Source: Marsupella aquatica
Lineage: Eukaryota; Plantae; Marchantiophyta
Direction: 5' to 3'
DNA length: 64,000 bases
Assembly: GCA_973895155.1 (NCBI GenBank)
Contig: OZ316896.1
Coordinates: 22,587,722-22,651,721, forward strand
In this document: piece by piece, positions 2,588 through 26,143 of the stretch
How the letters are laid out: the number at the start of each line of letters is the position of its first letter
Position numbering within the stretch: the first letter of the stretch is position 1
Translations under genes and position numbers: made by a program
Notes under the pieces: model-generated
Seen by the model: only the letters and a program-made list of their open reading frames with translations
What the model was told of the DNA's origin: nothing
Databases searched by the model: none

Positions 2588-2630
2588 GGTCGCCTGCTTC
2601 TTTGCTTTCTGTGCCGATGAGGCTCCTTTC

Positions 2631-4070: not shown

Positions 4071-4136
4071 AAATCCGTAAAGATTTTTGGATTCCGACTT
4101 AGCACAACTCCGGCCCGGTGTCTATACCAGCAATTA

Positions 4137-4147
4137 CTCTGATACCA
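4137..4147 (-). other. primer binding site, tRNA-iMet
   Basis: TGGTATCAGAG on the minus strand directly upstream of gag. Confidence 0.9.
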
Positions 4148-4742
4148 CAAGTGGTGGACCTAGCCACCCAGCACCCTCACCAATCCCAACACTCACGCCT
4201 AAGTGCCCCTGGTGCCCGAATGCCTCCATGGAATACCTCGAGCAAGCACTCTAGTGCCCTGTAATGCTCTACATTAGTTAGAAATGATGAAAATTTTATA
4301 AATTTTGAACTTTTTCTAACTCAAGGTGCAATCTAGTTACCTTTTGTAGCAATTTAGATCAACTGAACACTTTACCTAATGTTATGCTTCATCAGAGGCT
4401 ATTGTATTGGACAAGGATCGACAATATAAATCTTTGCTCTTTACATGCTACCAAGAAAGAAGACTGGACATCATTGGAGAAGCAATGCAGACTAAAAGAT
4501 TCAAGAACCAGACTCCAAAACACTTCTTCAACAAGAATGAGCTCTGTATACAATTATCACAATCACCCAATCTCTGTTATTTTAGTTAAATAGTTCTCAC
4601 GGTCATAAAAGTCTCATACTTTTTTAGGAGGTAGTAGTTGCGTAGTAGAATCATCCCTGCAAGTTTCATCTCAAACCGACATGTGGTTTGAAAGTTAGAA
4701 TTAATTTAGTTTTGCTGGTTTTTGCATAGCCACGACTTCGCC

Positions 4743-5349
4743 GACGCTTTGTGAAGCGTCCCTTGTATTTTTGGACGCTTTGAAAAGCGTCCACCCAAGA
4801 CCACGACGCTTTGAGAAGCATCCACATGAGAAGCGACGCTTTCGGAAGCGCCCACCAAGTTTTGACGCTTTCAGAAGTGTCCGCCACCCCATAGGCGACA
4901 TCGACACTGCGACGCCCATTGAAGCGTCCCGCCCGAAGACCAGAAGACGGATGCTGCGACCAAAACCTCGAAATTCAGCCGACGCTTTCTGAAGCGTCCA
5001 CAAAAGTCCTTTGTAGTTTTGGACGCTTTCTGAAGCGTCCACTATGTTCCCAACACTTAGAAAACTTTTCAGTTTTCGCACTTTTATAACACCATGCCGC
5101 TTTTACCGATTTATTTGAGACACTTAGAGATCTCAAAAAAGTCTGAAATTTTGTCAGCATAGAGATTATATGTAGTAGAGTACCTTAGAAAAGTTTCAAC
5201 TCATTCCGACTCTTAGTTTAGAAGTTAAAATTAGATTAAGATCACTGTTTATTAGTTTTACCGCAAACACCGACGCTTTGCAAAGCGACCGCTCAAACCT
5301 CGACGCTTTGAGAAGCGTCCCCTGCATTTTTGACACTTTCAGCAGTGTC
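4743..5349. repeat. array of 11 short palindromes GACGCTT-N4-AAGCGTC
   Basis: Copies at 4743, 4774, 4805, 4835, 4864, 4910, 4981, 5022, 5272, 5302 and 5332, with variable spacers. Confidence 0.9.
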
Positions 5350-6258
5350 CATTCACTTTTCAAGGATGAACGTCATTAAGTTTATTCAAGACCCTTTAGA
5401 TATGAAAGGGCATGAACACAGTGACGGACCAAACGAGAAGTATGACCACCAAACGAGAAGTGTGTTTTCAATTTCGTGAAAAACGGCGAAAAATCACTAA
5501 AATTAAGATCAAAAACGCTATTTTGAGGATGAATCCAAAATCGCATCCAACATCGGATTTCAAATCGATATACTGTCGACGCAAAAACACAGAATTGTCA
5601 CAATCCAGAATTCCACTACACTTTATCTAAAAAAAGTGCAAATTCCAAAACCTGGAAAAACAATACTTTTCACGTGATCCTTCTAAAAGCTAAATCCGAG
5701 CGTCAAACAAAACGAGTAAAACACAAGATTTCATTTTTGCCATCAAAATGGCAAACTGAAAATGGGATACGGCGTATCCCATTTCGGATTCAACTATTGA
5801 ACATGGACGAAAACCACACCAAATCATTCTCTTGACGCTTCCATTTAACCTCGGGTTAAAAATGTTTGAATTTTTAACTGCGGTAAAATTGAAAACTGTG
5901 AAAAACTGACCGCGGACTATAGTCGAACCACACAGTTAGTTAAGTTAACCCGACGACATGTCCGGAAACTTTTTAGCCCATAACGCATGATGAATACGAG
6001 ATGGGATCCAAGTATCCACTATCGTATTCAACCTCAATGTTTTCCACTTGCAACTTTGCATCAGGAGATCTTTCGACATGAATACCAATATCCCATCTAG
6101 TATTCAACCTCTACATTTTGAAGTTTTTGCATCGCATACCTTGATATTCCAGTTTGAAGACCAACTGGGATCCACGGCGACTTCCTCAAAAATCTACAAT
6201 TTAAATTTCAGCATTCTTTGAAAAGACAGACTCTCACATGAAAAAACCCTCGTATGGA

Positions 6259-6304
6259 CCAATCAGGGAATGCCACGTGTCCAATGCCCCCAAAAACTAT
6301 AAAA
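6259..6304 (+). promoter_or_regulatory. putative Pol II promoter of the transposase
   Basis: CCAAT 6259, G-box CACGTG 6274, CCAAT 6281 and TATAAAA 6298, about 150 bp upstream of ATG 6457. Confidence 0.55.
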
Positions 6305-6456
6305 GGAAGAGCTCGCATCTGTTTTTCATCTTCATTTCTCGTGATTACTTTGAGGTTCGTTCAGTATTGAGTAGTTGTTTTCATAGAATACTGTAATCTG
6401 AATTTTCTCTGTTGGATACGAATACGTACTCCTATACAACCCTTGTTTGATTCTCT

Positions 6457-9400
6457 ATGGCGTCTTCAAGTGATGAGTCAATTTACAGTTCAGATGCATC
6501 TTTGCCAGATGTTGTTTGAAAATTTATTCCATCTCGTTTGATGAATGAATTACCAGCCTCACAGAGAGTAGTGCCAGAGATTTCATTTTCCTCAGAATCT
6601 GAGAAATCAGAGTCTGATTCAGAGTCTTGTAGGAGTGTTGTGGGTGCTCCGATTTCATACTATGTCTCTCCAAGTAAACCTCTTAAACGACGTCTACTTG
6701 TAAAGAAGCCTAATGTAGTTCCTACGAAGAGACACTTGGTTCACCGCGAACCCCGACAGATCTTCAAAGGCGAAGGCCCCGGTTTTTAATGCCAAGAACA
6801 ACGTTACCATGTAGGCCCGCCCGAAGATCTCCATTGGTTTTTCCAATGTCTCATTCTCCGGGAGTGAAGATAGTTGTGTCCAGTGTTCAATCACAGTTTG
6901 AGCGAATGAGGAGTCCAAATGTGCTGGAATTGCAGGGAGGGGCAGCCTCAGAGCCAAATTTGGTGGGTCAAATACCAAGTGGGATCCGTGGATCCCACTT
7001 GGTATTCTCTACTTGAATGTTGAGAAACTGTGAACGCGAATTACCTATTTCGTCTCCTTCAGTACCAAATTCCTTGGGTCAAATACGAATTCCCTCGTGT
7101 TATTTTGCAGAATCCTGTGGGATAAGTACACGATACACGATACACGAGGGAATTCCCACTTAGTATCCCACTTAGTATTCCCTCGTGTTATTTTGCAGAA
7201 TCCTGTGCCCGAGTCATCGGTCTTGCGGACTTCCAACCCGAGTTTTGATGGTGGAATGCGAAATGGGATACGCGGATCCCAGTTCATATTGCGCAACGGA
7301 AAGTTACCAAGTCATGACGCAGAACAACAAGTGGGAAATTTTTCACTTCGAAGTCCCGAAGGACGAATACGAGTTGGGATCCATGGATCCCAATCGATAT
7401 TCCCATCAATTATTTCACAGAGTGATAAAACTAACAACATGGGACTTTGAAGCCCTTTGGCGAGGATGCAGTGTGAGGTTTTTGGATCTTCCATTGGACG
7501 GCAAGTGCAGAACGAAAGAGGGAAGAGATCTAGTGTCCAAAAAATTCCTCGGAGATTATTGCGAAGTGAGCTGCCGGAGAGAGGGCCCGAAAATTCAAGG
7601 GTACATGCTAAGTTGAAACTTGTCCAAAGATTATTCAATGGTCAAGATGAGCCCTCAAGTCGAGAAGAATCACCTAGGTTGGGATTACAGTCTCAGAGAC
7701 AAGTGGGCGGTACTCCGACTGAAGATGTGAATATCATTAAAAGATTTCAAACTAGAAATCTCCGAACCCCTGGGCCCCCAGCCTTTGTAAACTAAAGAGG
7801 TATACGTGCGTACACCCCCCTCCCTAGTACCCCTTATTATTTTTGGAAGCCTATAAAAATTTCTCTTGTTATTCTTAAAAACTTAATTTTGAAGAATAAA
7901 TCTGCCCCTTTGAGATATTATAATTTCACATTTTACACCATTTATGAAAGCCTTGAAAAGTTATAAATTTATCATGTGCAAACGGTTCTAAAACTGATGG
8001 GAGTGTTTTAGAAGGGTTTTGGGTACATACATTTTTGTGTTCGTGACCCTTTAACCCCAAACTTCAACTTTGGGGCATTTTTGAACCACATGGCAGGGTA
8101 GTCAGGGTTCAAAAGCTCCAAAGTCCTAAACTACTCTGAATCATAGATGTTGCAAGCATAATTATATGTCATATACACATGTTCCAATAAAGGGTGACCA
8201 CAAGGACCAATCCTATTGTGACGCGTGTCACATCCATATTACATCACCTCTTGAAGCATATTAACTTGGGTGACATTTATATAAGCCTATATTAGTTAGA
8301 AAAGGTTCTTTGAATAAAACCATCCCTTGATATTTCTAAGCCAATTATAAAAATTAATCTCAAATCAGATTTTTTGCACCCTTCATCCGTTCGCACGTCC
8401 AGCCCATTATTAATAATGCTGGGGGCCCAGGGCTCCGAACACCTATTACATTTTCAGAAGACTCTGAAGAGAGATCAAAGGAGGCTGCAAATGACAGAGA
8501 GACTGCTATAATCTCAAATGTTGTTGAAGAGATCCTGGGATGTGAGATTGTTCATGAAATAGTTACAGAAAATGTGGAGAGTGGAAACAACTCTACAGAA
8601 GATCTTTTTGTTTTAAATTCTAATTCACTAGAAAATAGATGGGGGGTAAGTTCTCCCGACACTATTCAGGATAGAGTAGAGGTGACAAGACCCAGTAAGA
8701 AAATCAGAGATCAGATGATTAGAAAAGATAGACTTACCATTGCAAATCTAAAAAAATGCAAAATTAAAGATATTTTTAAGTATCCCTGTTGTGACAAGTT
8801 TTGCTTGAGGTCTCTGGGTCTAGAGGAATGCTCAAAACAACGAAAGTATTATTTTGGTCTTAAACACTTGCAAAAAAATATTTTGCTACGAGGTTGTATC
8901 ATGAACAACTGTAGTACTTCTCGTGGATATAGTGTAAATGGACAACCTATATGTAGAGGAGGATTCAAGAAACTATATTCTTTAGGTAATAATAGATTGG
9001 CAACAATCCATGCAAACATGTTTACAAGGATTGAACGAGATACCTTTTGTAAGGAAGACTCACCTTCATTTCTAAACTTGGTGGAATGGTTGAAAGATTT
9101 TTTCCAAAAAAATATGGATAGTCTTCCCCATAAAGAGATTCATCACTTGCTAGACAATTGGACAAAGCAAGAGATACATGGAATCTTTGAAGCTGAAACA
9201 ATGTTGCGAGAAGAACAACAAGTTACATATTCTTATTTTTTGCGTGTTTGGAAAAAAAAGTTTCCAAATGTACGAATTCCTAAAAGGAGCTGATTTTCTA
9301 CTTGTGGTCCTTATACTGAATTTAAGGCTCTTCGGGACAAAGCAACAACTAAAGAGGATAAAAGTAAGTTCCACTAACTATAACCTTCAACTTTAATTTG

Positions 9401-11071
9401 ATGACATGTAATTCAATATTTGTCAAAGTTTATCCTTAGTTATTGATTTTTAATTCATTGCTATTGTATCATTTCAGGAAATTATATCAATGCCCTTATG
9501 GAGCATCGAAAAGTACAATCATTGGAAAGGATGAAGTTAGCCAAGCATCGTAAAAAATGTTATGATGAGCCCAACAAGTATTTGAGTATTTGTATAGATG
9601 GTATGGATGAAAAGAAAACAGAGCTACCACATTTTCTTCGTTGTCCAAAGAACATGGATGAAAAGTATTTCATTCCAATACATGTTGTAGGTTGTCTCAT
9701 CTTCAACAGGAACCTTGTAGCAAAAGTATTTTTGACATATCCCAATATCCATAATGATGCAAACTTGACCATACATGTTATTCAAAATGTATTAAATACA
9801 TGGGATGGGACATTACCAAGAGTGTTATATCTTCAATTAGATAATACCACTCGGGAAAACAAGAATAAATTCTTGATGGCTTATCTTCACATGTTAGTAG
9901 ATTTGAAGATTTTTGACAAGATTAAAGTGGGTTTCTTGTTGGTCGGTCATACACATGACCAGATAGATCAGATGTTTAGTAAATTTTTGTCTAGGTTAAA
10001 CAAGCACAAAGCATTTCGCTTGGAGACTCTTGAGGATATTATTCGACGAGCATATTCACCTGAAGCTTTGATCATATTTGTGGATGAAGTAGCCGATTTT
10101 CAAAAATTTGTCAATGAAAACGACCAGCCAAATGAGAAGGGAGTCTTAGGTAGAGTCTTGAGAGATCTCAATCTCATAACTTTTCAAAGGCAATTCAAAT
10201 TCAAACGAGTCATGGAGGATGGAAACGAAGAGACAACATTTCACGGAAAACATCTTTCCACGACCCAGGATTGGGGAGATGCAGTGACGTTCGTCAATTA
10301 CATTCCAACTTCAAGAATGTGGGTTGTTGCATAAATGTCACTGAAGTCAGCAAAAGGTGTTGAGAGGGATGATGTCCATGATTCTTCCAATACAGATGGT
10401 GCATTAACTACTCTGGTGAAATATGAAAAAGCTATCCAGGAAGGTTTCAATTACTTTGACAATGAAGATAAACTTTGGTGGATGAGTTTTTTTGAGAAAC
10501 AAAAAGATATTATCAAAAACCACCTAGAGGAAGGTGAGTGGTTATTTGAGTGGGTTTGGCCGCAACAAAATCAAGGTGCACAACTACTTCCAAGGGTGAG
10601 AAATGTACTTGTTGAAGAAGGTGTTGATCCAACTTTGGTTGAGAAAGTTGCTGGACCACAGAGAATTATGTACTCCGGACCTCGACGAAAGCAAGCTGAA
10701 TTTGGAGATTTCAGAGATATGGAAGTTAACAATAAGTGGTCCATGATATGTGTAGCGGCACACAAGGAGGCAAGTTGTTTTGGATGGCAAAGGTGTCAAA
10801 GATTTTGACAAGAACTGCAGACATTCCTGAGAGAATCAAAATCACATGGTACACAACTGAGGCAAGTGCTGAGTCTGCTATTGATGGGAAATATTTTCCA
10901 GAGAAAGATAATATATCTAATCGACTTCTCCAAGATGAACTAGTTCTATCATCAACAGCGGTGTATGCATACAACTTTGCGCTTTTAAGTACTAATCAAA
11001 TAGCAGCAAAAACTACAAAAATTATAGAGTCTGCTATATTAGAGAGAGGTTCTGCACACTCAGAGGATTGA
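6457..11071 (+). pseudogene. Sola/DUF7869-like DDE transposase, spliced and disrupted
   Basis: Core motifs SICIDGMD..K..LP, LYLQLDNTTRENKN and FLLVGHTHDQIDQMFS. Cys-rich N-region (CCDKFC, ICRGGF). Intron at ~9364-9477. Contains in-frame stops, frameshifts and a MITE insertion. The N-terminal exon structure is uncertain. Confidence 0.85.
7768..8432. mobile_element. 665-bp non-autonomous TIR element with 8-bp TSD (hAT-like TSD length)
   Basis: Perfect 15-bp TIR CCCTGGGCCCCCAGC. TSD CTCCGAAC at 7760-7767 and 8433-8440. Excision joins ORF 7457 in frame with ORF 8574. Confidence 0.93.
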
Positions 11072-11082
11072 GGTTGATGTCC

Positions 11083-12027
11083 TTAAACAGGTACATGCAT
11101 CAATTTTAGAATTTGATCTCGAATGAATTTTCTAAGGTTACATGCTCTTTTACAATTGTACCATTTTTCAGTAAATAAAGACTGTGCATGAAGGCATTGT
11201 GTAATATGCCATTGAATTCTGATTTCGTCCATATTTTGAAGAACAAATAGACCACAATCTGAATTGTTTGGTTGTTGAGGTACCTGAGAAAGAATCTTAA
11301 AGTTAGTCCAAAGTGTTTAATAATTGAACTAAATAAAAGTTAAAATTACTTTTCAAATCCTTACCATTGGATTGTATATCTCCACAACTCCCATTGGAAC
11401 TTTTCCAAAAAATAATTCTCATTCCATTGTAAAATATCTGTAAATTATCATTCAAAGTTCTTAGTCCAAAGTGTTTATATTTATGTACCACATAAATAAA
11501 TTCAAATTGAAAAAATGTAATAGAACATATACATACCTGCTCAGTATTGATCCAATTACATGGTTTGAGTGTAGACCGGCGAGAGAGTCTAGATGATACA
11601 TTTTGATCGAAGATTCAATCCGATCCAAACATATTACAATCAGACTCCAGTGCATGCTCATGTGAATTGGCATGAGAATGACCTCAATTTGGGAAAATGG
11701 TGGCTTGTAATAATTCCGCATCTTTTGAATTGATTCCAACAAGGTCTCAGCTGGTTCTGTTTCAATCCTTGAAACAAGCCAAGGGTAAAAAAAAGAGGAT
11801 AATATGTTTACTGAGGGAGCCAGATCTCCAAGTTCCTCGGTTATTAATTGTGGGTAAAATTCCATTATTTCATCACCCAAATATTGACCGGGTTCAAGTT
11901 GGCTCAATGTTTTATTGTCCAAAAGAAATCCACTAGAAGAATTGTGTGAGAATCTATGCAGAACATGTTTCAATACAAAATCCTCCTTTGGTTCCTGCAA
12001 AGACATTACTTTGTGAAATAAGAACAT
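11083..12027 (-). pseudogene. Ulp1/SENP-like C48 cysteine protease (3 exons, in-frame stop in exon 2)
   Basis: Motifs LEPGQYLGDEIMEFY, ILSSFFY, MPIHMSMHWSL (His) and YHLDSL (Asp). Last exon 11083-11283 reads VPQQPNNSDCGLFVL (Gln/Cys). GT-AG introns are in phase. Confidence 0.88.
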
Positions 12028-12106
12028 AGTCCAATCATAATCTTCCTCAATATTTCACAAGTTTGGATCAATAGATACAACATGAGAGAACTAATCAAAC
12101 TTAAGT

Positions 12107-15100
12107 CTACACCTCAAGGAATGAGCCAAGATCAAGTGTCGGAGCTTCATATTCCACTTCATCCTCTTCATCCTCATCATTGTCGTTCTCCTCCGCGGTT
12201 GTAATAATGCAAGTTCCAGTGGTGAGGGTGCTCGTAGTACCACCAATAGGTGGTTGAACCTCAAAGCTCATGGGTCTTGTACCCTCCTCAGTTGCTTCAT
12301 CATTCAAGTCCCACGATTCATCAAGCGTGACAAGTCGGGTCCGGATACAATCCACCTGGCTTGCACTGAGCTCCACGGCTGTCATCGGACGTTTCCCTAA
12401 CAAGGCAACGCATGAGGTTGAACCACTCCCCGCATATAAATCAGCAACCCAATCCCCTGCTTCACTAAAATGTTGAACGAACCAATCTGCTAGAGCTATC
12501 GGTTTCTGGTAAGGGTTCACTATTTCTCCCAATGGTGTTACACATTTCTTTGTAACACAAGGGACTTTTATGATGTTTACCCTTTTCTCATCATGTTCAA
12601 AATTGTACATGTCTCTAGTCCTAATACCACTCTCGTGATAATATCCGATTGACCAGTTTTCAAAAGCCCAAGCCAATCGATTCCTGGAAGGATGAGCATG
12701 TACATTTGGCTTCTCCCAAATTCCAGCCTCTACACCTGCGTTACAAGTTTTTCCAAGAGCATTCATCACAGACCAACTTTGCTGCAAAGAGTGAATCACA
12801 ACAAACCTCCACATCTTTGAACTTGTCACCTTGGCAAAACAATTCACCATATCCACATATCACTCTCTGAAAATGGGACCTCATCATTTTCAGAGCCAGG
12901 CACATTGAATCCATAAGGAATGTCTGCAATTGCAAGTGTGTAATTCCTTTTCTCTACAAACTTATCCAGCGCCCTGACATCTCCACAATGCAATATATAT
13001 CTGATAAAATTTCCGTCAACGTTTTTCCATCGATGGTCACTAGACTCTGCTTCAACCGTTTCAATCCCACGACGATGGTTGTAGTTCTCAATCGCTTCTT
13101 GAACGTAATTCTTAAACCCTGGGGGAATAACACTCAAAGTCAGCTCCTCCGTAGGCTTCTCAACCGCATCGGCACCAATTGCATCCTTGTTCTTCTTCTT
13201 CAAAAAAGCTTTCAACTGCAAACGCAAACTTGTTAAAAGAATCTGGAGGAAAGACAACGGGGAGATAACCATTTAGGAATTCAAACAATCAAATCTGGAC
13301 GATGAATGCGATATGGGATACTCCGTATCCTCGTTCGTATTCAACCAAGCAAAAACCACAGTCAAACATCACCACCGTCAAATAACCATAAGTGAATCCA
13401 AGATGGGATACCCCGTATCCCACTTCACATTCGACCAAGCAAAAACCACATTAAAACATCACAAACGTCAAATAACCACATTGAATACGAGATGGGATAC
13501 CGCGTATCCCACTTCGAATTCAACCAAGCAAAAACCACATTGAAACATCACAAACGTCAAATAACCACAAGTGAATACGAGATGGGATACCGCATATCCC
13601 ACTTGGCATTCAACCAAGAAAAAACCGCATTGAAACATCACCAACATCAAATAAGCACAAGTGAATCCGAGATGGGATACCCCGTATCCCACTTCGCATT
13701 CCAACAAGAAATCCACGAAGAAAACCTCCGAACATGGCGAAACAAATAGAAAAGTCCAATCAGTGGAACGGGAGAACATACCACATCGGACAATTTCCCA
13801 CTCCATCTTTCAAGCTTGGCAGATTCTGTTTCTTTCGGAAAAATTCGTTTGCAAGTCGCCCAGTCTTTCTGCCCTGACAAATAAACAAAAAGCTTGCTGA
13901 TTTTCACAAGTTTCTTGTAACTCTCGGCTTCTTTTGCCATCTGCTCCAAAGAGATCATCCGGTCCTTCACTCGGAGAAGAAGGGACTCCAAAAATTGGTC
14001 GTGTTCAATTCCCTGGATTGCTCTCCAAGGTGTCAAGGTAAGGCCCCCTGCAAGCTTATTCAAAGCTTTTGGAATCGACTGCGCTTTTCCCTTTCCTTTC
14101 TTGAGTTTCTTGATCGGTGACTTCTACTATTCTGCCCTTTGATCTCCAACTTGTTCCACATCTCAAAGATGTGGTCTTGGAGTTCCCAGACCTTACCCGA
14201 CCTAAACGCAATTCGGAAGAGAGGCTCATGCTTCTTCAGGCTTGTGGCGTCCCCCGGAAAAAACCCGTCGAGGCAAACCTCCATCGCACACACTTCTCTA
14301 GTCTCCTTGGTTTTTGCCATTCCTTTGGCAAGGAAAATCTTATGCATTGTTCGGATTTGATCAATGTTGTTCATTTTTTTCCTGTACTCTTGATCAATAT
14401 TATGTTGGATGCTAAGTTTTTGAATGTCCTCCCTTGTGAGACCATCATACACCCAAGCTTGGAGTTCATTGAAGATCTCTCTCCCATAAGCCTGATACAA
14501 TTCTCTCTTAGCCCGAGCACCGTGATTACCTCCAATCACTCGAACCACAAGTGTCTTTTCCCGCTGCAAAGCTGTGGTGATATCTGTTGAATCGTTTTTC
14601 TTTTCTTTAACAGCTCCCCTAGATGATAAAGAAAGCCCACCTGACGAAGTTGAAGGAATCTGAGAAGGTGTCTGTGAAATTGGTGGGACCAAAGATGAGA
14701 CAACACTTCCTGGTGCAGAAGGCGCGCGCTTCTGGATGTCACGTCGATCCAATTTCTTCTTGACAATAGCTTCTTCTGACACCGCTACTTTAGAACCTTC
14801 CCCAGAGAGTTGATCTGCAAGCTTCCTCTTTGCCGGTTCTTTAAAAGAAACTGTGGCAGATTTCTCCTTTGTCGAGGGTGTTCCAGACATCTCCCCTGAT
14901 TTCGAAGCCGGATCGGTAGGCTTCATTATTTTCAACTTCAAAGACCGCTTTTTGACGCCAAAGTCGGCTCCAACAACAGACCTATACGCTACCTTCGTAA
15001 AATCCTCAACAACCCTCCAAGACTTCAAGACAAATTTCAAACACCAATAAGAAAAGTCCTCAATCTCCGGCACTTCCGAAATCAGCTGGCAGATCGTGTC

Positions 15101-15472
15101 ATCAGGAAATGTGTTCATCGAGACCCGATCAAGTTTCTCGTAGTTGAGGACAACTACAGTGAAGGCATTGTTCGGAAGAATGCAAAGGTACATTGGAATC
15201 TTCTTCAGCTGTTTTGTTTTTGAGTTGGTGATATCCGCCTCCCCGGTGTCCACGACTAATCCATAATGGCAATGGTCTTTACCCTTAACTATAACCAACC
15301 ACACCGCTGGACCTTCATAGGCTCTGTGAATATCCATCGCCCGAGCATCCCTGAAGTACCACCTATTCCTCACGAGTTTCTCCTCCGTGTAAAGGTCTTT
15401 CTTCCAAATCTCATCGACGATGGATGTCCGTGAAGACTGGGTCAAACCAGACGACTTTGATTTGTTCGACAT
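12107..15472 (-). pseudogene. ParB/Srx-like domain fused to a beta-class N4-cytosine/N6-adenine DNA methyltransferase
   Basis: ParB-like motifs VRVIGGNHGARA, AWVY.GL and IQHNIDQ. Phase-0 GT-AG intron 13243-13781. MTase motifs ILHCGD, ADIPYG (motif IV), NPYQKP and GDWVADLYAGSGST..AVELS (motif I). Frameshifts near 14130 and 12855. The MTase call is firmer than the ParB call. Confidence 0.85.
13300..13710. repeat. 5 x ~90-bp tandem units, each with a ~43-bp palindrome; intronic
   Basis: Cores TGGGATAC-N3-GTATCC at 13314, 13404, 13493, 13583 and 13673. Confidence 0.95.
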
Positions 15473-15514
15473 GATCCTGAAAAAGATTGACACACTTAGA
15501 ACCAGACCAAAAGT

Positions 15515-15990
15515 AGTTAAATGCGAGATGGGATACGCGGTATCCCACTTCGCATCCAACATCAACAATTGCCAAGTCTGATGCAATTAACGAAAAAGAG
15601 GGAGTTGAATGCGAAATGGGATACGCGGTATCCCACTTCGCATCCAACAACAACAAATGTCCAGAGTCTGATGCAATTAACGAAAAAGAGGGACTTGAAT
15701 GTGAAATGGGATACGCGGTATCCCACTTCGCATCCAACCTCAACAATTGCCTCGAGTCTGATGCAAAGCACGAAAAAGAGGGAGTTGAATGCGAAATGGG
15801 ATATGCGGTATCCCAGTTCGTATTCAAGGTCAAGAAAGAGTGAGGAGGTTCGGATGGAAGTCTAAAAAGAGGGTGTTCAATGCGAGATGGGATACGCGGT
15901 ATCCCATCTCATATTCAATATTGAAAAGAAGGCCAAATAATAGAGTTGAATACAAATGGGGATACGGCGTATCCCTCTCAGGATTCAACA
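15515..15990. repeat. 6 palindrome units at ~90-bp spacing upstream of the ParB-MTase ATG
   Basis: Cores at 15529, 15617, 15707, 15797, 15888 and 15957. Confidence 0.95.
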
Positions 15991-16456
15991 ATTAACCAAA
16001 CGAGGAGGGGAGAGTTTCTTCAGTTTTTACCTATTTTTTGGTTTCGATTCGAGCAAATACGAAAAGCTATAGAGATGTTGCGGCCCAAGAAAAACGCGGA
16101 GGTAAACAAAGTTGAGAAGAAAAAGAAATGAGAGTAATTTTTCTGACCAGGCACTCCTATTTATACTTTATCACCTTCGTATCCACAGGCGATAAGGTTT
16201 CCACAGGCGATAATGTGTATCCAAAAGCGTAGGGTTGGAGTCTGGATGTCTATGTATATTTTTTTTCTCTTGATGGGACTAGAGATAAGGCATATCCCCA
16301 AGTCCTTGTATTCAACCAAATAGATTTTACGCGTAGCGAATCGGGTTGATGCAAGGGTAATCACAAAACTCTTTATTCATTCGGAATTGTGCCATAAAAT
16401 AAACTAAGTTGATATTCTTAAAAAGAGTCTTTACAAAGAGCCCATTCAAGATGGCT

Positions 16457-17008
16457 CTAAACCAGACTAGAAGCTTCCCCATACATTTCCAAGAGCCTCG
16501 TTTGCTCATCTTTCTCAAGATTGTGCCAGTCTTCTTGAAATCGATTTAGGTCAGACCTTGAAAATAAACCTAAGAAATCGATTGGAGGAAGATTCGGTGT
16601 TTCCATCCTAACAAAAGCTTCAATATGAACATTCTGAAGGGGTTTTCCATCGGGAATGCTTGTCAGCATTTCATTTACTTCCTCAAGCTGGCTTTTTGCT
16701 AGTCTAAGAATACCCCAGACTCATGTACAAGTTACGAGCTGGTTCCATTTCTTGGAGGTGCATCCAAGCCACACCATGGTTTTTAATCGCATCAATCTTT
16801 CATCAGCTTGGTTCTTGGAGGAATCAAACTCATCCTCTATACAACAAACTTTCAAAATGGGCCAAATGAACGTTTCAACAATCTCATCAGGAAGTCCATC
16901 CAAAAGCAATCCGGATTCCCTTTGGCCACTTTTTTGTTGAATTTGTTTCTTCTCTTTGTCGAATGACATCGCTAACCTTGTAAAGACAGGGTTCTCAGTG
17001 ACTGCCAT
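16457..17008 (-). pseudogene. F-box-like protein, TE cargo (one in-frame stop)
   Basis: LLDGLPDEIVETFIWPIL...LGCTSKKWNQLV resembles an F-box. ORFs 16721-17008 and 16457-16669 are in the same frame across a TGA. Confidence 0.55.
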
Positions 17009-17183
17009 TCCAAAATAAGAGTGGATACCTGGAGTAATAAATGAGATGGTGAGCTCTTTCTCAGCAACCTACAAAAAAGTGATGGAAAACTGATTTTATT
17101 TCTTTGATCAAAAGAAAAATATATTCACAAAATGTTTGACCCAAGAACGTTCACCTAAACACTTACACACTACTCAAGAAAAT

Positions 17184-17468
17184 TCAACGCGATAAGTTAA
17201 CCCAAGGATCTTCGTTCCAAATCCGACAATAAAAATATGCCAATCGATGATATTTGTTTTGGGCATCACGACAATAGTTACAAGAAGAATTAACAGAGTG
17301 CAGACAACCACTCAAACATATCCTCGACCGAATTGGAACTCCGTCCTTATTTTTTTCACAAAACTCTATTCGGAGTGGATTCAAACTATCATGTGGATCC
17401 ACGCCTCCCATCCATAGCATGCCTAATGCAAGACGAAGAACTTTGAGTGCAACTAATCGCTTATACAA
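17184..17468 (-). pseudogene. Cys-rich ORF remnant of unknown function, TE cargo
   Basis: CLSGCLHSVNSSCNYC pattern; no clean start codon. Confidence 0.3.
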
Positions 17469-17689
17469 TCAACGAGCACGTTTCTCAAGGTTTTGATTCT
17501 GGACCACCATTAGACTCACAAGAGAAAACTTCGTTTTTCAAGGAAAGCTTAAGCTTGAGTGGGTGTCGGTCACTGAAAGGCAGCAAGAGCTTCAGTGCGT
17601 ACAGTTCAGTTGACCTTCGCCTGCGAAACACTCAGTAATCCATAAGGTTTTTCCCATCATTCAAATAAACTCTAGGTAAATACCACATG

Positions 17690-18445
17690 GGCAATCAAAA
17701 CTGGATATTTGAAGAGTGAATCCCAAACGGGATACGTCGTATCCCATTTCACATTCAACGTTGAGGTTTTGACATTTGGAGTCTAAGATGCTTCATTTTC
17801 GCAGGTTGGATGCGACATGGGATACCCCGTATCCCACTTCGCATCCAACCTCCTTTTTTAGCTAAAGAGAAATCAAACTGGATATTTGAAGAGTGAATCC
17901 CAAACGGGATACGCCGTATCCCATTTCGCATTCAACATTGAGGTTTTGACATCTGGAGTCTACGATACTTCATATTCGGAGGTTGGATGCGACATGGGTT
18001 ACCCTGTATCCCACTTTTTTAGCTAATGTGAAACAAAAACTTGAAATTTGAGGGTTGAATCCCAAACGGGATACGCCGTATCCCATTTGGGATTCGTCCT
18101 CGCCATTTCAGGAAGATTCTCACCTGTTCGTCAAAACTGATTTTCGGGGAATACGAGTTTGTATAGACGATATGCATTCGTCGAGAGTAAGAGTATACAG
18201 AACGAGAAAAAATGAGCGTAAAATTCTCAAGCGATGATCTCCTATTCATAGTTTTCTCACTAACCGTGGTTAGTATTTGACTGCAATTGCATCGCAGTCA
18301 GTTAAATATTACCATTGAGAAGAATCATTTTGGAATATTCTTGTTGGGTAAACCAATATCCGCACTTTTACTGCATTTTTTTGGTTTTTTTGGAATTCCG
18401 CGGTTGGATCCGAAATGTGATACGCCGTATCCCATCTTTGTATTC
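17690..18445. repeat. palindrome array organised as a ~177-bp dimer, plus subterminal copies
   Basis: Cores at 17728, 17818, 17905, 17995, 18067 and 18416. Confidence 0.9.
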
Positions 18446-19485
18446 GTGTCAATTTTTCCCATTTTTTCAATTCGAAAAACTAGTTTTTAGTGGGAATACT
18501 AATTCCGTATCCAAGACTTTTTTGCCTTAGAAACTTTTTTCGCCGCGGGCAAAACGAGAAGTGTGGTCACACTTCTCGTTTGGTCCGTCACTATGTTCAT
18601 GTTCTTTCAGTCTCTCAGTCTCCTTGCGTTCCTGCTAGCCTATATGAAGTAGAATTTGTGTCATTTTCAAGTGTGAAGAAATAAAGTAGTGCCTGTGGCA
18701 TGTGCTGCAACACTGGAATCACCTTTGCAAAGCTTTCGTGTGTTTTCGGATGGTATGGAGCTTGCAAACGCAAAGGAATTCTTCTCCCTTCCTTGGTCTG
18801 AATGATTGAGAGTTTAGATCATTGAAGTAAAATTATTTGTATGGAGTTGAATCTCAGAAGTATGAGGGAATAGATTCCTTAAGTGGTGACAACCCATCTT
18901 CTTGAGTTCTTGATGCATAGTTTTTGGCATGACATTGCTTGTGCACGGATGCAAAGATTGTTACTCACCAATTACCCGTGACTTCAATTTGATCATGATG
19001 GTGTTTATTATTCGTGACTCAGAGTACCGACTGAATATTAAAGTGATTGATTACTAGTTTCTTTTGAGTACCTTTGGAAGGAAAAGTTGAGACGTGTTGA
19101 CGACATTTTAGTAATCATCCTAGTACAGTAATCCATTCCAGAAATGTTCTTACGGATTTACCACCCAAATCACCTCAAATGAAGTATTGATGAGAAGTTA
19201 CCTTGGTGATTTCTAGACTCCCTCATCATACCTCAAGATTTCATTGTGTTTTGTTATTTGTTTCCATTTTATTAATTGCATTTACAATGTTAAGCAAACA
19301 TTCAAATCTATGCCTTGATGAGCAACCATAGTAAAAGGCTCAAACCATGTTTTTGTGACCTTAGTCATTCATAAGTGTTAAATGATAGAAAATCATTCCT
19401 TTCTTGTTCTTCCATGGGATCGAATACCGAGTTTTGGAAATTAAATGTTGATTTATGTCCTTAGTGCAATACTACATACTATTTT

Positions 19486-19859: not shown

Positions 19860-22605
19860 TTCAAGTTTTGGAAGCTCGACCTTACACTTTGGCAGATGCA
19901 CCAGCTGCATTTGCAGAGGTAATTCGAGAAGTAGTTCTCCTTGTTATGAGAGGAAGGAGAACTCTATCCTAGCAAGTGTAAGTTCTTCCAAGACCAGATT
20001 GAGTATTTGGGCCACACTATATACCCAGGGGGATTGGGTGTACAGCAGACTAAAGTGGAGGCCATTACACAGATTCCTTGTCCTACTGATGTGAGCAGAG
20101 TTCGTGCATTCTTAGGATTGGCGAGCTACTACAGGAGATATGTTAAAGAATTTAGCTAGCTTGCTAAACCTTTAACCATACTCACTAAGTTGGATCAGGA
20201 ATGGACTTGGGGTGATGACCAGGAGCATGACTTTCAGGAGTTGAAGCAAAGGTTGGCATCATCCCCTATTTTGAGAAGACCCATTTCAGGCAGACCATTT
20301 TAGCTACACACTGATTGGAGTGGAGTAGGACTTGGAGCAGTGCTGACTCAGAAGGATGATGAGGGGAATGAGTTTGTTATGGCTTATGCCAGTAGATCAA
20401 ACAATTCAGCAGAGGCTAAGTATAGCTCTTATGAGGGAGAGTGTTTGGCAGTAGTGTGGGCTGTTGCACACTTTTGTTGCTACTTGTTTGGTAACCCCTT
20501 TACCTTGATCACTAATCATCAGCCTCTTAAGTGGTTAATGGAGTCTAACAAGCTTACAGGGAAGCTTGCACGATGGGCATTGTTGTTACAAGAGTATGAT
20601 TTCCAGGTGGTGCATAGGCCTGGAAAAGTGAACTTGGATGCAGATGGATTAAGTCGCAATCCATGTACCAATCAGCAAGATGAGACTGGAGCCAGATGGC
20701 ATGATGAGTCAGATAAGGAGATGGTGTCAGGATGGCATGCATCTGCCTTTCTTTGTTGGGTGCCAGCATACAGTGGATCTATGGACTCTACCTCATTGGA
20801 TGGAGTGGATGATGAGTCTTCAGATGTGGATGTTGGTGAGGTAACTTCTGGACAACAAGATATTCACAATGATGTGAGAGTGTTGGAATATCTGCTTAGT
20901 GGTTCTATTGTTGGCAGTGTTGATGCCAAAGAACGTGACAGGGTTCTACAGAGAGCCAAGAGGTTTCAATGGGAGGGAAACCATCTTTTGAGAGTACTGC
21001 ATGATGGTAGGGTGTTGGTGGTACCAAAACCATCACAATGAGTATATTTGGTGCAACATGCACACGAGGAGTTGGGTCACTTTGGTGTGAAGCGCACTTA
21101 CAGCTTGCTGTAGACACAGTATTGGTGGCGTGGTATGCACACTCATGTCCAGCAGTTGATAGCGAAGTGTGTGGTATGTGATAGAGTGAGAGCATCATTT
21201 AATGCTCCCACTCCCAAGTTGCACCCATTGCCGATCATGGGTTTGGGATATCGTTGGATTTTGGATTTTGCTGGTCCATTACCTCTTACCCAACGTCATA
21301 ATCGGTATGTTTTGGTCATGGTGGAGCACTTCTCCAAGTGGATTGAGCTAGTGGCGTTGCCCAATAAAGCTAGTGGAGGAGTTGCTGCTATATTTTTGGA
21401 TCGTGTACTCAGTCGTTTTGGAGCACCAGCTGAGGTGTTGACTGATCAGGGAACTGAGTTCCGTGGAGAGTTTGAGAGTTTGTGTGAACAAGCTCTGATT
21501 GATCATCGTACTACCTCTCGTGATCATCCTGAGGCAGATGGATTAGCTGAGAGAGTTATGCAAACTATGAAGAGAGGATTGCATAAGTATGGCTTGCAGG
21601 TTGGTCATCTGGGAGATTGGGATCTCTAGCTACCTTGGTTAGCTATGGGCTACCGTTCAATCGGCAAGCATCACTTGCATCCTTCTCACCTTACTTTTTG
21701 CTCTATGGTAGAGAGCCAGATTTGCCAACAGCTATTTGTCGTGATGCTGCACCAGTTATGAACTTGGATGATCCTGATGTTTGGGTCAAGGTGTGTTTAG
21801 AGAAAGCACGGGTATTTCAGAGAGTGATGCCCATGGCTTTTAACAACCTTACCATTGCCCAACATCGTGATACTTTGAGGTATGCCACTATTCATGGAGG
21901 AGGTTATCGTGCAAGCATCCGACGATTTCATCTTGGTGATTATGTTTATTTGCAGCAGACAGCACCCACAACGCTTGATGTGACCGCAGGCCGGACAATC
22001 TTACGTGTGCGTGAAGTGTTGTCTTCTGGTGTTCTGATGTTGGAGGGACGCGATGGTATGGTTTGGAAGGATCATGTGCGCAACTGTGCACCATATCACC
22101 TTCCCAATATTGATGGTACAGTAGATCCAAGCTTGGCACATGTTCGTGCTGGCTTGAAATATATGTTGTGTGGATCTGCTCAGGGAGCAGCTACTATGCT
22201 GATTTGTGATAAGTGTTCTAGAGGATGGCACATGTCATGTTTGACACCACCATTGCAGGTGATTCCTAGTGGATCATGGTTGTGTCCTCAGTGTCGGTGA
22301 AGCCGACTAGTTATCATTTGTGTTATCTTGGCAGATATGGATTGTAGGTAGGTGATTGATGGGGCTCACTTGCACTCGACCTCCTGATCTTCACACCTAA
22401 AAATGTGTATATCAACCTTGTAGAACTCATGGCTAGCTAGAGTTAGGCTAGGGGACCTTACTCCCAGCTAGGGGGGCGATTGTGGGTTTTGGACATGTGT
22501 GGACATGAGTTCCACTTGTATTCCATTCTCTTGTGTTTGTGATGTGGCAGTCAGACTATGTCTGGATGTATGTGATAAGCAATGTATGTTGTGTAGCGAT
22601 GTGTA
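19860..22605 (+). mobile_element. Ty3/gypsy fragment: RT end, RNase H, integrase with PHD finger, PPT and start of 3' LTR
   Basis: RNase H AYASRS..EGECLAVVWAV..DADGLSR. Integrase HH..CVVC, LDFAGP, LTDQGTEF and DGLAER. C-terminal PHD. PPT AGGGGGG at 22470-22476, then TG at 22481. Confidence 0.9.
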
Positions 22606-23328
22606 TGCGCACGATAAATTCTCGCTTCCGATCTCATGTCTTTGTTCTGATCGCGGAGGTGAGTATCTCTCCACCAACTTTCTTGCCTTCTATCAACAAC
22701 ATGGCATCCATTGTCAGTTGACCATGGCTCGCACACCTCATCAGAATGGAGTGGCCAAGCGAAAAAATTGTACCCTCCTTGAGGGCACCAGGAGCATTCT
22801 CCTCAACTCTAATATTCCCATCTCATTATGGACTGAAGCTGTTTGCACTGCTAACTATACATAAAATCGTTGCGGCACTCGGGCACTTCACCTGCAATTA
22901 AACCCCATTCAAAGCTCTACACGGTAAGAAACTAGATCTTTCACATCTTCGTGTCATTGGCCTGATAGCCTTGCTTATGTTCTTTTTCCTCCTCACTTAT
23001 GCACTAAACTCAGCGCCAAGACCCTCCAGACTGTCCTGCTAGGATACGACGAACAATCTAAAGCATATCGTTGCTATGACCCCTCTCGAAGACGTATTAT
23101 CATTGCCTCCAATGTTAGCATTCATGAGTCTATCCGTGGGGACTTCCCCTCTAATCATGCTGTTGTCACCAATATCTTTCAACACTTGCTTGGTGAACCT
23201 ATCGTTGGTCCTCCTGACCAAGAGGGGGTAGCTACCATCGACAACTCTGCTACTGCCCCAACTGACGACAACCTTGCTGCTGCCCCTAACGGTGTTGAGC
23301 TCGTTCCGCCTGTGCCTCCAGAACTCGA

Positions 23329-23605
23329 GGGGTTAACTAAGTGTATATTTTGGGGTACCACGTGCGATCCTAGCCTAATATAAATAGACCTATTTTATAA
23401 AGAAAATATTCCAAGAATATTCTCTATTTTCAATATTAATAACCTATTTTACTTTATAAAGGGTATATATTAAAGAATATTCTATAAACATGAGTTTATA
23501 ATACCTTCTTTTGCATCCTACGCTTTTTAAAAATTTAGTTAGAATCTGCCAAAAATACCTATTTTGGATTGCACGTGGTTCCTAAGATTTTTGATAGTCA
23601 ACCCC
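23329..23605. mobile_element. 277-bp MITE with 3-bp TSD (Harbinger/Tourist-like)
   Basis: TIR GGGGTTAACTA/GGGGTTGACTA plus inner inverted ACCACGTGCRATCC. TSD CGA at 23326-23328 and 23606-23608. AT-rich core. Confidence 0.8.
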
Positions 23606-25477: not shown

Positions 25478-26143
25478 CTAATGCTCATCTATCTCATACT
25501 CTACTGCTCTACGATGATACCTCATAAACTGCTCCGCCTCTACCAATGTTCTAAATGCCTCGTGACAATTCCCTGAATAACCCGTCACCTACATGCTTGC
25601 ATCTGCCCACGATCCATATATTCCAGGTACTTGACCCACTGCTATTGCATAGTACTTCTTTGGCGCCACTCCTCCAGCAACCCGGCTCCACTCTCGCTCC
25701 TCCTCTCTCTGCTGAACCCTCATCTTACTCGGCCATCTCCTCAGAATCGACGCTGCCGCATGCTGTTGCTCCTTACTATATGGTTTCCATTGCTGGTTGA
25801 CTTCCATCTCCTCCTGTGTGTGCTTCTTCGTTGGAGTCTGCTCGGACTCAGAGGGGGCTACGGTCAGCGCACTCTTCGGCACTTTTGTTGGAGAAATCTG
25901 TGCTTCAGAGGGGGCTTTATCTCCTGCTTCGCTCTTGCCACCTGCCACTTGTTCGACCTCTTCATGACCACAATCGTCTTTCGGCTCCAGTTCTCTCACC
26001 AAGTGCGCCAATAGCTTCACTGTCTTGTGGGCAAATTGGAGCAGCAACCCCACTGCCTCTAACACTGTCCATAACGTTCTTAACACTGCACGACACATCG
26101 CCCGTCCTGTCTCGGTCTTCATTTCTCCTGTCTGGGTCGACAT
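25478..26143 (-). pseudogene. antisense ORF in copia 3' region with an RNase H1 N-terminal hybrid-binding (caulimovirus viroplasmin-like) domain
   Basis: KYYAIAVGQVPGIYGSWADASM*VTGYSGNCHEAFRTLVEAEQFM. One TAG lies where Gln is expected. Confidence 0.8.

What the first reader, a model, noticed from the sequence alone, without database searches (positions are those of the whole stretch)
12107..15472. Spliced ParB-like + beta-class N4C/N6A DNA methyltransferase fusion with a DIPY catalytic motif
Seen: four ORF-track fragments join into one protein of about 940 aa through a phase-0 intron (GATGTG|GTATGT at 13781 to CTCCAG|ATT at 13243) and two single frameshifts. Motif IV (ADIPYG) precedes motif I (DLYAGSGST), which is the beta permutation. 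NPYQKP matches the HP.QKP motif. GGNH and HN..Q resemble the ParB/Srx GxxR and EN..R motifs. Known: eukaryotic 4mC writers of bacterial origin are reported in bdelloid rotifers (N4CMT) and Marchantia (MpDN4MT1). Inference: transposons like this could be a vehicle or reservoir for such enzymes in early land plants. Whether it writes 4mC or 6mA cannot be read from the motif. The ParB N-terminal half looks short and may be partly deleted.
Basis: partly seen in the sequence, partly recalled or inferred. Interest (0 to 1): 0.88.

Follow-up and report, generated by a model that had tools for sequence, protein, structure and literature searches.

The report
Plant transposon carrying ParB–DNA methyltransferase gene
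A 13-kb jumping gene in what is likely a seed-free land plant carries a broken copy of a bacterial-type DNA methyltransferase fused to a ParB-like domain, which intact copies likely use to recognise the element's own palindromic repeats and mark its DNA (probably on adenine), an arrangement already reported, untested, in seaweed transposons.

Summary
The gene is real. It is the accessory gene of a 13,183-bp TIR transposon (5415-18597; 33/35-nt TIRs AAC..GTT, CATG duplication, decayed DUF7869/Sola1-like DDD transposase, Ulp1 protease). Both frameshifts and a previously suspected ParB deletion are lesions of this copy: related copies in public runs carry the missing bases and the missing N-terminal half. 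Single-chain homologues (Chara, Ginkgo, unnamed) hold all parts in the same order; relatives also occur in Riccia and Adiantum. Predicted folds of intact relatives match ParB/Noc/KorB (N-terminal plus DNA-binding domain) and beta-class amino-methyltransferases (CcrM best). Motif IV starts with D in 47 of 50 aligned relatives and N6A enzymes score far above N4C ones, so 6mA is likelier than 4mC; no link to MpDN4MT1 or N4CMT was found. Eighteen copies of a 19-bp palindrome lie inside the element and none outside, 11 beside or within this gene: candidate parS-like sites. The kind is already in print: Ectocarpus Sola1-1_Ec32 carries an opposite-strand ParB+N4C/N6A methyltransferase gene, and red-algal ParB accessory genes sit beside inverted-repeat arrays. 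New here: a land-plant member, streptophyte spread and a concrete site to test. No activity or expression shown.

The parts
5415..18597 (.). TIR DNA transposon, 13,183 bp, Sola1-like, multi-copy family; this copy decayed
   Evidence: TIR pair (I2; 33 of 35 nt identical); contigs of X1, X2, X4 join 5410 to 18598, as an empty site would
5411..5414 (+). Left target-site duplication CATG
   Evidence: the target is the centre of a palindrome, so 0 or 2 bp readings also fit; AAC termini with 4 bp agree with Sola1-1_Ec32
18598..18601 (+). Right target-site duplication CATG
5415..5449 (+). Left TIR (AACAC...), with subterminal AAACGAGAAG repeats at 5431 and 5451
18563..18597 (-). Right TIR (AACAT...), with subterminal repeats at 18552 and 18572
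8358..11071 (+). DUF7869 DDD transposase, core and C-terminus, broken by stops and a frameshift; a degenerate 5' part probably starts at ATG 6458 (inferred)
   Evidence: PF25273 E=7e-46; invariant D51, D132, D174 in 12 aligned transposases; the stop at 10332 is a sense codon in other copies
11083..12054 (-). Ulp1/C48 SUMO-type peptidase gene, two exons inferred
   Evidence: PF02902 E=3.4e-13 and 1.4e-5
13782..15472 (-). Exon 1 of the ParB-methyltransferase gene: unassigned N-terminal ~190 aa, low-complexity linker, C-terminal half of the ParB/Srx domain (GGNHGAR 14522-14533), ParB-like helical domain
   Evidence: fold of relative P0294
14541..14543 (-). Junction of an in-frame internal deletion (about 87 codons, estimated from P0294) that removes the ParB N-terminal half in this copy
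   Evidence: loose ends at 14541/14543; alignment with P0291-P0299
14127..14128 (-). Frameshift 1 (one base short in this copy)
   Evidence: all covering contigs of X1-X4 and X5 carry one more base here
13243..13781 (-). Phase-0 GT-AG intron (alternative in-frame acceptor 13216) holding a 90-bp tandem array with 5 palindromes
   Evidence: six relatives end just after ..KL.DQV at the same place and P0297 reads through
12107..13242 (-). Exon 2: linker, beta-class amino-methyltransferase (DIPY 12913-12924, NPYQKP 12500-12517, DLYAGSGST 12416-12442), acidic tail
   Evidence: PF01555; profile and fold matches
12856..12857 (-). Frameshift 2 (one base short in this copy)
   Evidence: extra base at depth 313 of 313 (X1), 2939 of 4820 (X2), 1193 of 1586 (X3); X4 has no cover
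15529..15976 (.). Six TGGGATAC-N3-GTATCCCA palindromes at ~90-bp spacing just upstream of the ATG, inside a putative 5'-UTR intron 15477-16030 (inferred)
17728..18434 (.). Six further palindromes in the right subterminal region
5763..7393 (.). One full palindrome (5763) and four 2-nt-spacer variants (6002, 6980, 7264, 7375) near the left end

Best explanation
The region is a decayed copy of the accessory gene of a Sola1-like DNA transposon; in intact copies it would encode a ParB-like domain fused to a beta-class amino-methyltransferase that likely dimerises, likely binds the element's own 19-bp palindromes and likely writes N6-methyladenine on the element's DNA. Shown: element anatomy, fusion, lesions, palindromes confined to the element. 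Predicted: ParB NTD + DNA-binding-domain fold, NTD-mediated dimer, methyltransferase fold. Inferred: that the palindromes are this protein's sites, that the mark is 6mA, and that it serves the element (keeping it expressed against host 5mC silencing, or regulating its own promoter and transposase access), as a parS-addressed self-marking system. This copy cannot make the full protein.
For: Element: TIRs, CATG duplication, empty-site joints; transposase + / accessory gene - layout repeated in an independent locus, L001, 1 of 9 short loci. Fusion: 8 of 150 methyltransferase hits also match the ParB piece and 3 (P0142, P0147, P0215) match all four pieces in order. Selection: window vs L001 pS 0.81 (saturated), pN 0.33 over 104 codons. 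Fold: P0294 model (pLDDT 79.8) hits Noc/ParB at Foldseek E 1.8e-6; PadC Z 10.6, rmsd 3.1, 99 aligned; KorB-operator complex Z 10.0, rmsd 4.3, 201 aligned over model 8-302. Homodimer of P0294 1-310 scored 0.44 against best control 0.01 (mark reached by 21 of 30 solved microbial dimers and 0 of 23 monomers; 17 of 29 eukaryotic; runs agree in at least 64% of contacts; pLDDT at least 73), interface at residues 8-56 and 126-135; may be recalled from solved ParB dimers. P0136 model (pLDDT 88.9): CcrM Z 23.5, M.BceJIV 22.0, MboIIA 20.9. D first in 47 of 50 motif-IV columns. 18 palindromes inside, 0 outside, 0.01 expected; L006 and L007 carry their own repeated GAT-containing palindromes. Same model proposed for algal elements (passages).
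Against: No binding, methylation or expression data. The ParB arginine patch is divergent (GGNH[G/T/S/C/Y], no GxxR), so CTP-gated clamping may be lost. The DNA-binding domain alone matches weakly (KorB DBD Z 4.8, ParB-parS Z 4.3; Pfam HTH_ParB E 0.04-0.05). N4C enzymes are close behind in fold (N4CMT Z 20.1, PvuII 19.3). The flanking host repeat has its own five repeated palindromes (ACGCTT-N4-AAGCGT), so repeated palindromes are not peculiar to ParB-bearing elements; L001, which has the methyltransferase tail, shows no repeated palindrome in its 3 kb, and no methyltransferase was seen in L006 or L007 (short contigs). Motif IV is degraded in some relatives (DLPR, DIPH, DIPS, DFPC). No listed contig spans a whole gene, so a fully intact copy is not shown.
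Confidence: 0.5

Rival explanations
1. Same self-marking system, but the mark is N4-methylcytosine (or both A and C), making these transposons a source of 4mC in plants.
For: Best profile hit is M1.HpyAVI (E 1.6e-22), recalled as a dual A/C enzyme (recalled, no call); N4CMT and PvuII are within 3-4 Z of CcrM; top viral fold hits are auto-annotated N4C; the Ectocarpus paper leaves both open.
Against: S-first motif in 1 of 50 aligned relatives, none SPPY; N4C enzymes score 6 to 18 orders of magnitude below N6A enzymes in the profile search; known plant and rotifer 4mC writers have (T)SPPY.
Confidence: 0.17
2. The protein is made and binds DNA, but the palindromes are transposase-binding or structural repeats; the methyltransferase acts without site addressing or on other targets.
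For: Seven of the 18 palindromes are subterminal; host repeat has similar palindrome sets; weak DBD match and divergent ParB motif.
Against: 11 of 18 flank the start codon or fill the intron of this very gene, far from the ends; the TIRs have a different subterminal repeat; inverted-repeat arrays lie beside ParB accessory genes in red algae too.
Confidence: 0.2
3. The methyltransferase domain is catalytically dead and the protein acts only as a DNA-binding scaffold or anti-silencing factor, with Ulp1 as a partner.
For: Non-canonical second position of motif IV (I, F, L, A, T, V) and degraded variants in several relatives; precedent of inactive methyltransferase domains in DIRS elements (passage).
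Against: D..PY, QKP and the glycine loop are kept across very distant relatives (K216, P217, G243 in at least 90% of 90 rows); DPPY itself occurs in 7 of 50.
Confidence: 0.1
4. Passive cargo: a captured host or microbial gene with no role for the element.
For: This copy is a pseudogene; several DUF7869 loci show no methyltransferase in the short stretch held (8 of 9).
Against: Saturated synonymous but restrained non-synonymous divergence between two element-borne copies; same cargo in a brown-algal Sola1; no close phage or viral relative.
Confidence: 0.03

Closest known systems
Sola1-1_Ec32 accessory gene of Ectocarpus (PMC12477816; passages and one supplementary table row seen)
   Same: Giant Sola1 element, AAC..GTT termini, 4-bp TSD, accessory gene opposite to the transposase, ParB-like domain plus N4C/N6A methyltransferase, about 1,000-1,100 aa; proposed to bind and modify its own element.
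   Different: Brown alga versus (likely) land plant; 21.5 kb and 282-bp TIR versus 13.2 kb and 35-bp TIR; Ulp1 gene and palindrome arrays are not mentioned for it in the passages seen. Sequence homology could not be tested: the FASTA supplements are unreadable.
Red-algal Plavaka accessory genes PAG2/PAG3 (bioRxiv 10.1101/2025.02.11.637652; passages)
   Same: ParB-like accessory protein beside tandem arrays of inverted repeats; a PF01555 methyltransferase on the same element; self-binding hypothesis.
   Different: EnSpm/Plavaka transposase; ParB fused to a 2OG oxygenase and the methyltransferase to SET, in separate genes.
Bacterial ParB/Noc/KorB CTPase clamps
   Same: Predicted NTD plus central helical domain fold and NTD dimer; palindromic candidate sites of similar length.
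   Different: GxxR arginine patch absent, no ParB C-terminal dimer domain seen, fused to a methyltransferase, nuclear eukaryotic context.
Beta-class amino-methyltransferases (CcrM, M.BceJIV, M.MboIIA, M.RsrI) and phage ParB-methyltransferase fusions
   Same: Motif order, fold (Z 19-23.5); Atlas feature neighbours include phage ParB_N+PF01555 clusters at 0.86-0.87, leads only.
   Different: Only 20-31% identity to phage enzymes; D-x-P-Y motif; longer ParB module; spliced.
MpDN4MT1 (Marchantia) and N4CMT (bdelloid rotifers)
   Same: Eukaryotic beta-class amino-methyltransferases of bacterial type.
   Different: They have (T)SPPY, are host genes, lack ParB (no extra domain; chromodomain); N4CMT is a weak profile hit.
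VANDAL/VANC anti-silencing proteins (named)
   Same: Transposon-encoded protein acting on its own element through internal sequence motifs (motif detail recalled).
   Different: VANC removes 5mC marks and is unrelated in sequence; here a mark would be written.

Membership tests
Beta-class N4C/N6A DNA methyltransferase (PF01555) | Motif IV before motif I (circular permutation) | tested here: met
   DIPY 12924 upstream of DLYAGSG 12442 on the coding strand
Beta-class N4C/N6A DNA methyltransferase (PF01555) | Profile and fold match | tested here: met
   PF01555 35.9 bits vs cut-off 26.7; relative P0136 model vs CcrM Z 23.5, rmsd 2.6, 221 aligned
Beta-class N4C/N6A DNA methyltransferase (PF01555) | Methyl transfer to DNA and base modified | not testable with these tools
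   needs biochemistry or native long reads
MpDN4MT1/N4CMT-type 4mC writers | (T)SPPY catalytic motif | tested here: not met
   DIPY in the window; 0 SPPY among 50 aligned relatives
MpDN4MT1/N4CMT-type 4mC writers | Shared clade in a phylogeny | not tested
   their sequences could not be fetched; the tree lacks them
ParB/Srx superfamily | ParB/Srx N-terminal fold | tested here: met
   in intact relative P0294 (53% identical over the shared 137 aa): PadC Z 10.6, Caulobacter ParB Z 10.6 rmsd 2.4; half deleted in the window copy
ParB CTPase clamp (ParB/Noc/KorB) | GxxR arginine patch | tested here: not met
   GGNHG/GGGHS/GGNHT/GGCNS in 17 of 17 rows with letters; box-I arginine kept in 13 of 13 rows with letters
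ParB CTPase clamp (ParB/Noc/KorB) | Central HTH DNA-binding domain | tested here: inconclusive
   two-domain alignment to KorB (Z 10.0, 201 aligned) but DBD alone Z 4-5; Pfam HTH_ParB E 0.04-0.05 in 2 of 9 relatives
ParB CTPase clamp (ParB/Noc/KorB) | Binds a palindromic site, CTP-dependent sliding | not testable with these tools
   candidate sites found; binding untested
Sola1 DNA transposons | 4-bp TSD and TIRs | tested here: met
   CATG duplication, 33/35 TIR; 4-bp TSD for Sola stated in PMC10741241 (passage); TSD length is formally ambiguous at a palindromic target
Sola1 DNA transposons | DDD transposase | tested here: met
   three invariant aspartates D51, D132, D174
Sola1 DNA transposons | Sequence homology to reference Sola1 transposases | tested here: inconclusive
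   no Sola1 reference available (not held); motifs differ by eye from the published Sola2 alignment while sharing spacing; AAC termini match Sola1-1_Ec32; Sola1 motif likeness is recalled
Transposon-borne ParB+methyltransferase accessory proteins (Sola1-1_Ec32 kind) | ParB-like + amino-methyltransferase in one chain, opposite strand to the transposase | tested here: met
   against the description
Transposon-borne ParB+methyltransferase accessory proteins (Sola1-1_Ec32 kind) | Orthology to the Ectocarpus protein | not testable with these tools
   sequence in unreadable supplement

The most novel reading that the evidence does not exclude
Streptophyte Sola1-like transposons run a miniature parABS-derived epigenetic system in the plant nucleus: a ParB-type dimer loads on the element's own parS-like 19-bp palindromes, spreads as a nucleotide-gated clamp and writes bacterial-type 6mA (or 4mC) across the element to escape host 5mC silencing; the family, kept from charophytes to Ginkgo, would be an unrecognised source of adenine methylation in land-plant DNA.
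Probability: 0.22. Interest if true: 0.88.

Novelty: new member of a known kind. Interest (0 to 1): 0.52.

Why it matters
Transposons that bind and chemically mark their own DNA are almost unknown experimentally; the ParB-methyltransferase class has been noted in algae only from domain predictions. This family extends it to land plants (named relatives in Chara, Riccia, Adiantum, Ginkgo) and supplies a concrete 19-bp candidate site in many copies, so binding, mark type and anti-silencing role become directly testable. If active it would be a source of 6mA or 4mC in plant nuclei independent of host enzymes, and a eukaryotic use of the bacterial ParB module.

Tried and rejected
No whole genome is held, so copy number and intact copies could not be counted. 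Word-based search for longer methyltransferase relatives found none among 1770 candidates; the HMMER library search then found 281. No RNA holder listed among 6 runs: no evidence on expression either way. Pfam, PDB and PHROGs give nothing useful for the N-terminal 190 aa; a Tudor/PWWP-like look by eye was not tested. No ParB hit by sequence profile against PDB. No viral-contig relatives of P0136 or P0294; phage records match only at 23-31% among the 25 of 228 listed: a recent phage or giant-virus origin is not indicated. The tree is a quick tree of 82 of 152 rows (70 short rows dropped), with unverified prokaryote-like labels and no 4mC reference: it shows the window in a supported 7-row clade with L001 and P0136, apart from the Chara clade, and says nothing on the donor. 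Atlas gave no usable hit for the transposase. Iyer 2016 (PMC4738411; section 8, passages and supplement searches): none of the clades described matches, and DIPY, DFPY, GGNH, YQKP, CQKP occur 0 times in its supplement. Three look-ups of earlier scan findings returned nothing. Sequencing error as the cause of the frameshifts cannot be told from mutation, but either way they are private to this copy or a subset.
Full report
Observation. With X at the two frameshifts the product is 941 aa without a stop. The last track hits PF01555 at E=1e-8, above the curated cut-off; the first has no Pfam hit.

The breaks are lesions of this copy. Contigs from four public runs of two studies cover the whole element with 85-99% identical variants (1842 to 6157 records laid per run). 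At 14127 every covering contig of X1-X4 carries one more base, as does X5 from a third study. At 12856 the extra base is at depth 313 of 313, 2939 of 4820 and 1193 of 1586 in X1-X3, with no cover in X4. Contigs that match 14391-14543 stop there and continue with sequence that translates (by hand) as DPEKASSWRY directly into RVIGGNH; a contig matching from 14541 upward continues as EEVSRLMETK. Both peptides match the N-terminal half of relatives P0293/P0294, so about 87 codons were deleted in frame at a 3-nt microhomology. No listed contig spans a whole gene, so an entirely intact copy is inferred, not shown. No RNA run was listed.

The fusion and the intron are real features of a family. A HMMER search with the methyltransferase piece found 281 proteins at E up to 0.001, 150 listed; 8 of the 150 also match the ParB piece, and P0142, P0147 and P0215 match all four pieces in order. 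Of 20 representatives looked up, 7 carry species names: Chara braunii (4), Ginkgo biloba, Adiantum nelumboides, Riccia sorocarpa; whether those sit in transposons was not tested. Nine closer relatives of exon 1 (47-56% identity) mostly stop just after ..KL.DQV, i.e. at the same donor, while P0297 reads through. P0297 fits an acceptor at 13216 (2 gap positions) better than 13243 (11), both in frame.

Surroundings. The gene lies in a 13,183-bp element, 5415-18597, with TIRs identical at 33 of 35 positions and CATG on both sides; contigs of X1, X2 and X4 join the two flanks as an empty site would. It sits in a repeat upstream of a Gypsy primer-binding site and gag, probably an LTR (inferred). On the plus strand is a decayed DUF7869 protein (E=7e-46) with three invariant aspartates; its named relatives are in Adiantum (52%), Riccia (47-48%) and marine animals. 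A Ulp1 peptidase lies between it and the methyltransferase gene. One of nine short metagenome loci with this transposase, L001, also has the methyltransferase tail converging on it; between window and L001 synonymous sites are saturated (pS 0.81) while pN is 0.33 over 104 codons, similar in kind to the transposase (pS 0.85, pN 0.21).

Folds. The model of intact relative P0294 (pLDDT 79.8) hits Noc and ParB at Foldseek E 1.8e-6 to 5e-5. VIA gives PadC Z 10.6 (rmsd 3.1, 99 aligned), and aligns 201 residues (model 8-302) to KorB on its operator at Z 10.0, rmsd 4.3, so the module resembles NTD plus DNA-binding domain rather than a lone Srx domain; the DNA-binding part alone is weak (Z 4-5). A homodimer prediction passed (0.44 against best control 0.01; 21 of 30 solved microbial dimers and 0 of 23 monomers reach the mark, 17 of 29 eukaryotic ones; runs share at least 64% of contacts, pLDDT at least 73), with an NTD interface largely in the half deleted from the window copy; likeness to solved ParB dimers may explain the pass. 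The box-I arginine is kept in 13 of 13 rows with letters, but the GxxR patch is replaced by GGNH-x-x, so it works like ParB by fold without meeting the CTPase motif test. The model of exon-2 relative P0136 (pLDDT 88.9) matches CcrM Z 23.5, M.BceJIV 22.0, MboIIA 20.9, N4CMT 20.1, PvuII 19.3.

Which mark. In the 90-row alignment 50 rows have letters at motif IV; 47 begin with D, one each with N, E, S, none SPPY. Four multi-domain hits with SPPY (P0189, P0227, P0253, P0275) score as conventional PF01555 enzymes and were not in that alignment. The family profile ranks M1.HpyAVI, M.BceJIV, RsrI, CcrM and MboIIA (E 1.6e-22 to 4e-14) above N4CMT (8e-8) and PvuII (5.5e-4). MpDN4MT1 and N4CMT have TSPPY/SPPY (passages of 10.1101/2021.02.12.428880 and PMC8885841). 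I put 6mA at about 65%, 4mC or both at 20%, inactive or other at 15%.

Palindromes. TGGGATAC-N3-GTATCCCA occurs 18 times with up to 2 mismatches, all inside the element, 0.01 expected: six just upstream of the ATG in a putative 5'-UTR intron, five in the intron, seven near the ends; four spacer variants lie at 6002-7393. L006 and L007 have their own repeated palindromes (CATGATATCATG five times; CCGATACCGGTATCGG twice), L009 a short AT-rich one, and six loci none; the flanking host repeat has five ACGCTT-N4-AAGCGT, a warning that such repeats need not involve ParB.

Mechanism. Shown: anatomy, fusion, lesions, site distribution. Predicted: folds and dimer. Inferred: an intact protein dimerises, binds the element's palindromes, and methylates adenine in or around them, favouring expression or transposition of the element in a 5mC-silencing host and perhaps repressing its own promoter; Ulp1 would be a second chromatin-directed accessory. 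Confidence 0.5; rivals are listed separately.

Comparison with what is known. PMC12477816 (passages and a supplementary row) describes Sola1-1_Ec32 of Ectocarpus: 21.5 kb, AACCG-CGGTT termini, 4-bp TSD, best hit a Physcomitrella Sola1 transposase, with an opposite-strand 1104-aa ParB-like + N4C/N6A methyltransferase gene, proposed to bind and modify its own element. The Bostrychia preprint (passages) reports inverted-repeat arrays beside ParB-domain accessory genes and a PF01555 gene on the same elements. PMC3627910 (passages, one supplement) notes methyltransferases on viral Mariner elements. PMC4738411 (section 8, passages, supplement searches) lists ParB-linked eukaryotic clades that differ in group or architecture. 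PMC12695648, PMC12344493, PMC5751038, PMC4455052, PMC10741241 and 10.1101/2021.09.26.461848 were seen as passages only. Iyer 2011 and Bao 2009 were not seen. In ten searches I found no report of this family in land plants and no experimental test, but subscription papers, Repbase entries and the unreadable Ectocarpus FASTA supplements may bear on this.

Verdict. A real, decayed member of a known but untested kind of transposon accessory gene. New are the land-plant occurrence, the streptophyte spread and a concrete candidate binding site. Interest 0.52.

Noticed in passing
window 4743-5319: The repeat into which the element inserted (probably a Gypsy LTR) carries five repeated palindromes GACGCTT-N4-AAGCGTC, and the insertion hit the centre of another palindrome (TGAAAGG.CATG.CCTTTCA).
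   Followed up: partly
window 16457-17068 (-): A third small gene-like ORF pair inside the element, with only a weak F-box hint (E=0.14).
   Followed up: partly
window 14900-15472 (-): Unassigned ~190-aa globular-looking N-terminal region of the fusion; no Pfam or PDB hit; resembles a Tudor/PWWP-type barrel by eye only.
   Followed up: partly
window 20304-22297 (+): Gypsy RNase H-integrase ending in a PHD finger (E=5e-11); PHD-bearing Gypsy lineages of seed-free plants are recalled, not tested.
   Followed up: no
window 22928-25527 (+): Decayed Copia pol (SH3, RVT_2) next to the Gypsy element.
   Followed up: no
window 50784-52250 and 57117-58499 (-): Tandem ~6.35-kb duplication with two Kelch-repeat genes, 80-91% identical blocks; a perfect 38-nt inverted repeat at 52663/58983.
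   Followed up: no
window 29865-31003 (+) and 33920-34372 (-): Ribonucleotide reductase large-subunit exons and a Methyltransf_16 exon, apparently host genes.
   Followed up: no
P0142: Chara braunii gene model with two tandem ParB-methyltransferase units, possibly two merged element copies.
   Followed up: no
P0049: Branchiostoma protein with DUF7869 and Ulp1 (PF02902) in one chain, echoing the transposase-Ulp1 pairing in this element.
   Followed up: no
L006 665-3424; L007 1337-1510: Related DUF7869 elements carry their own repeated palindromes with a GAT core.
   Followed up: partly
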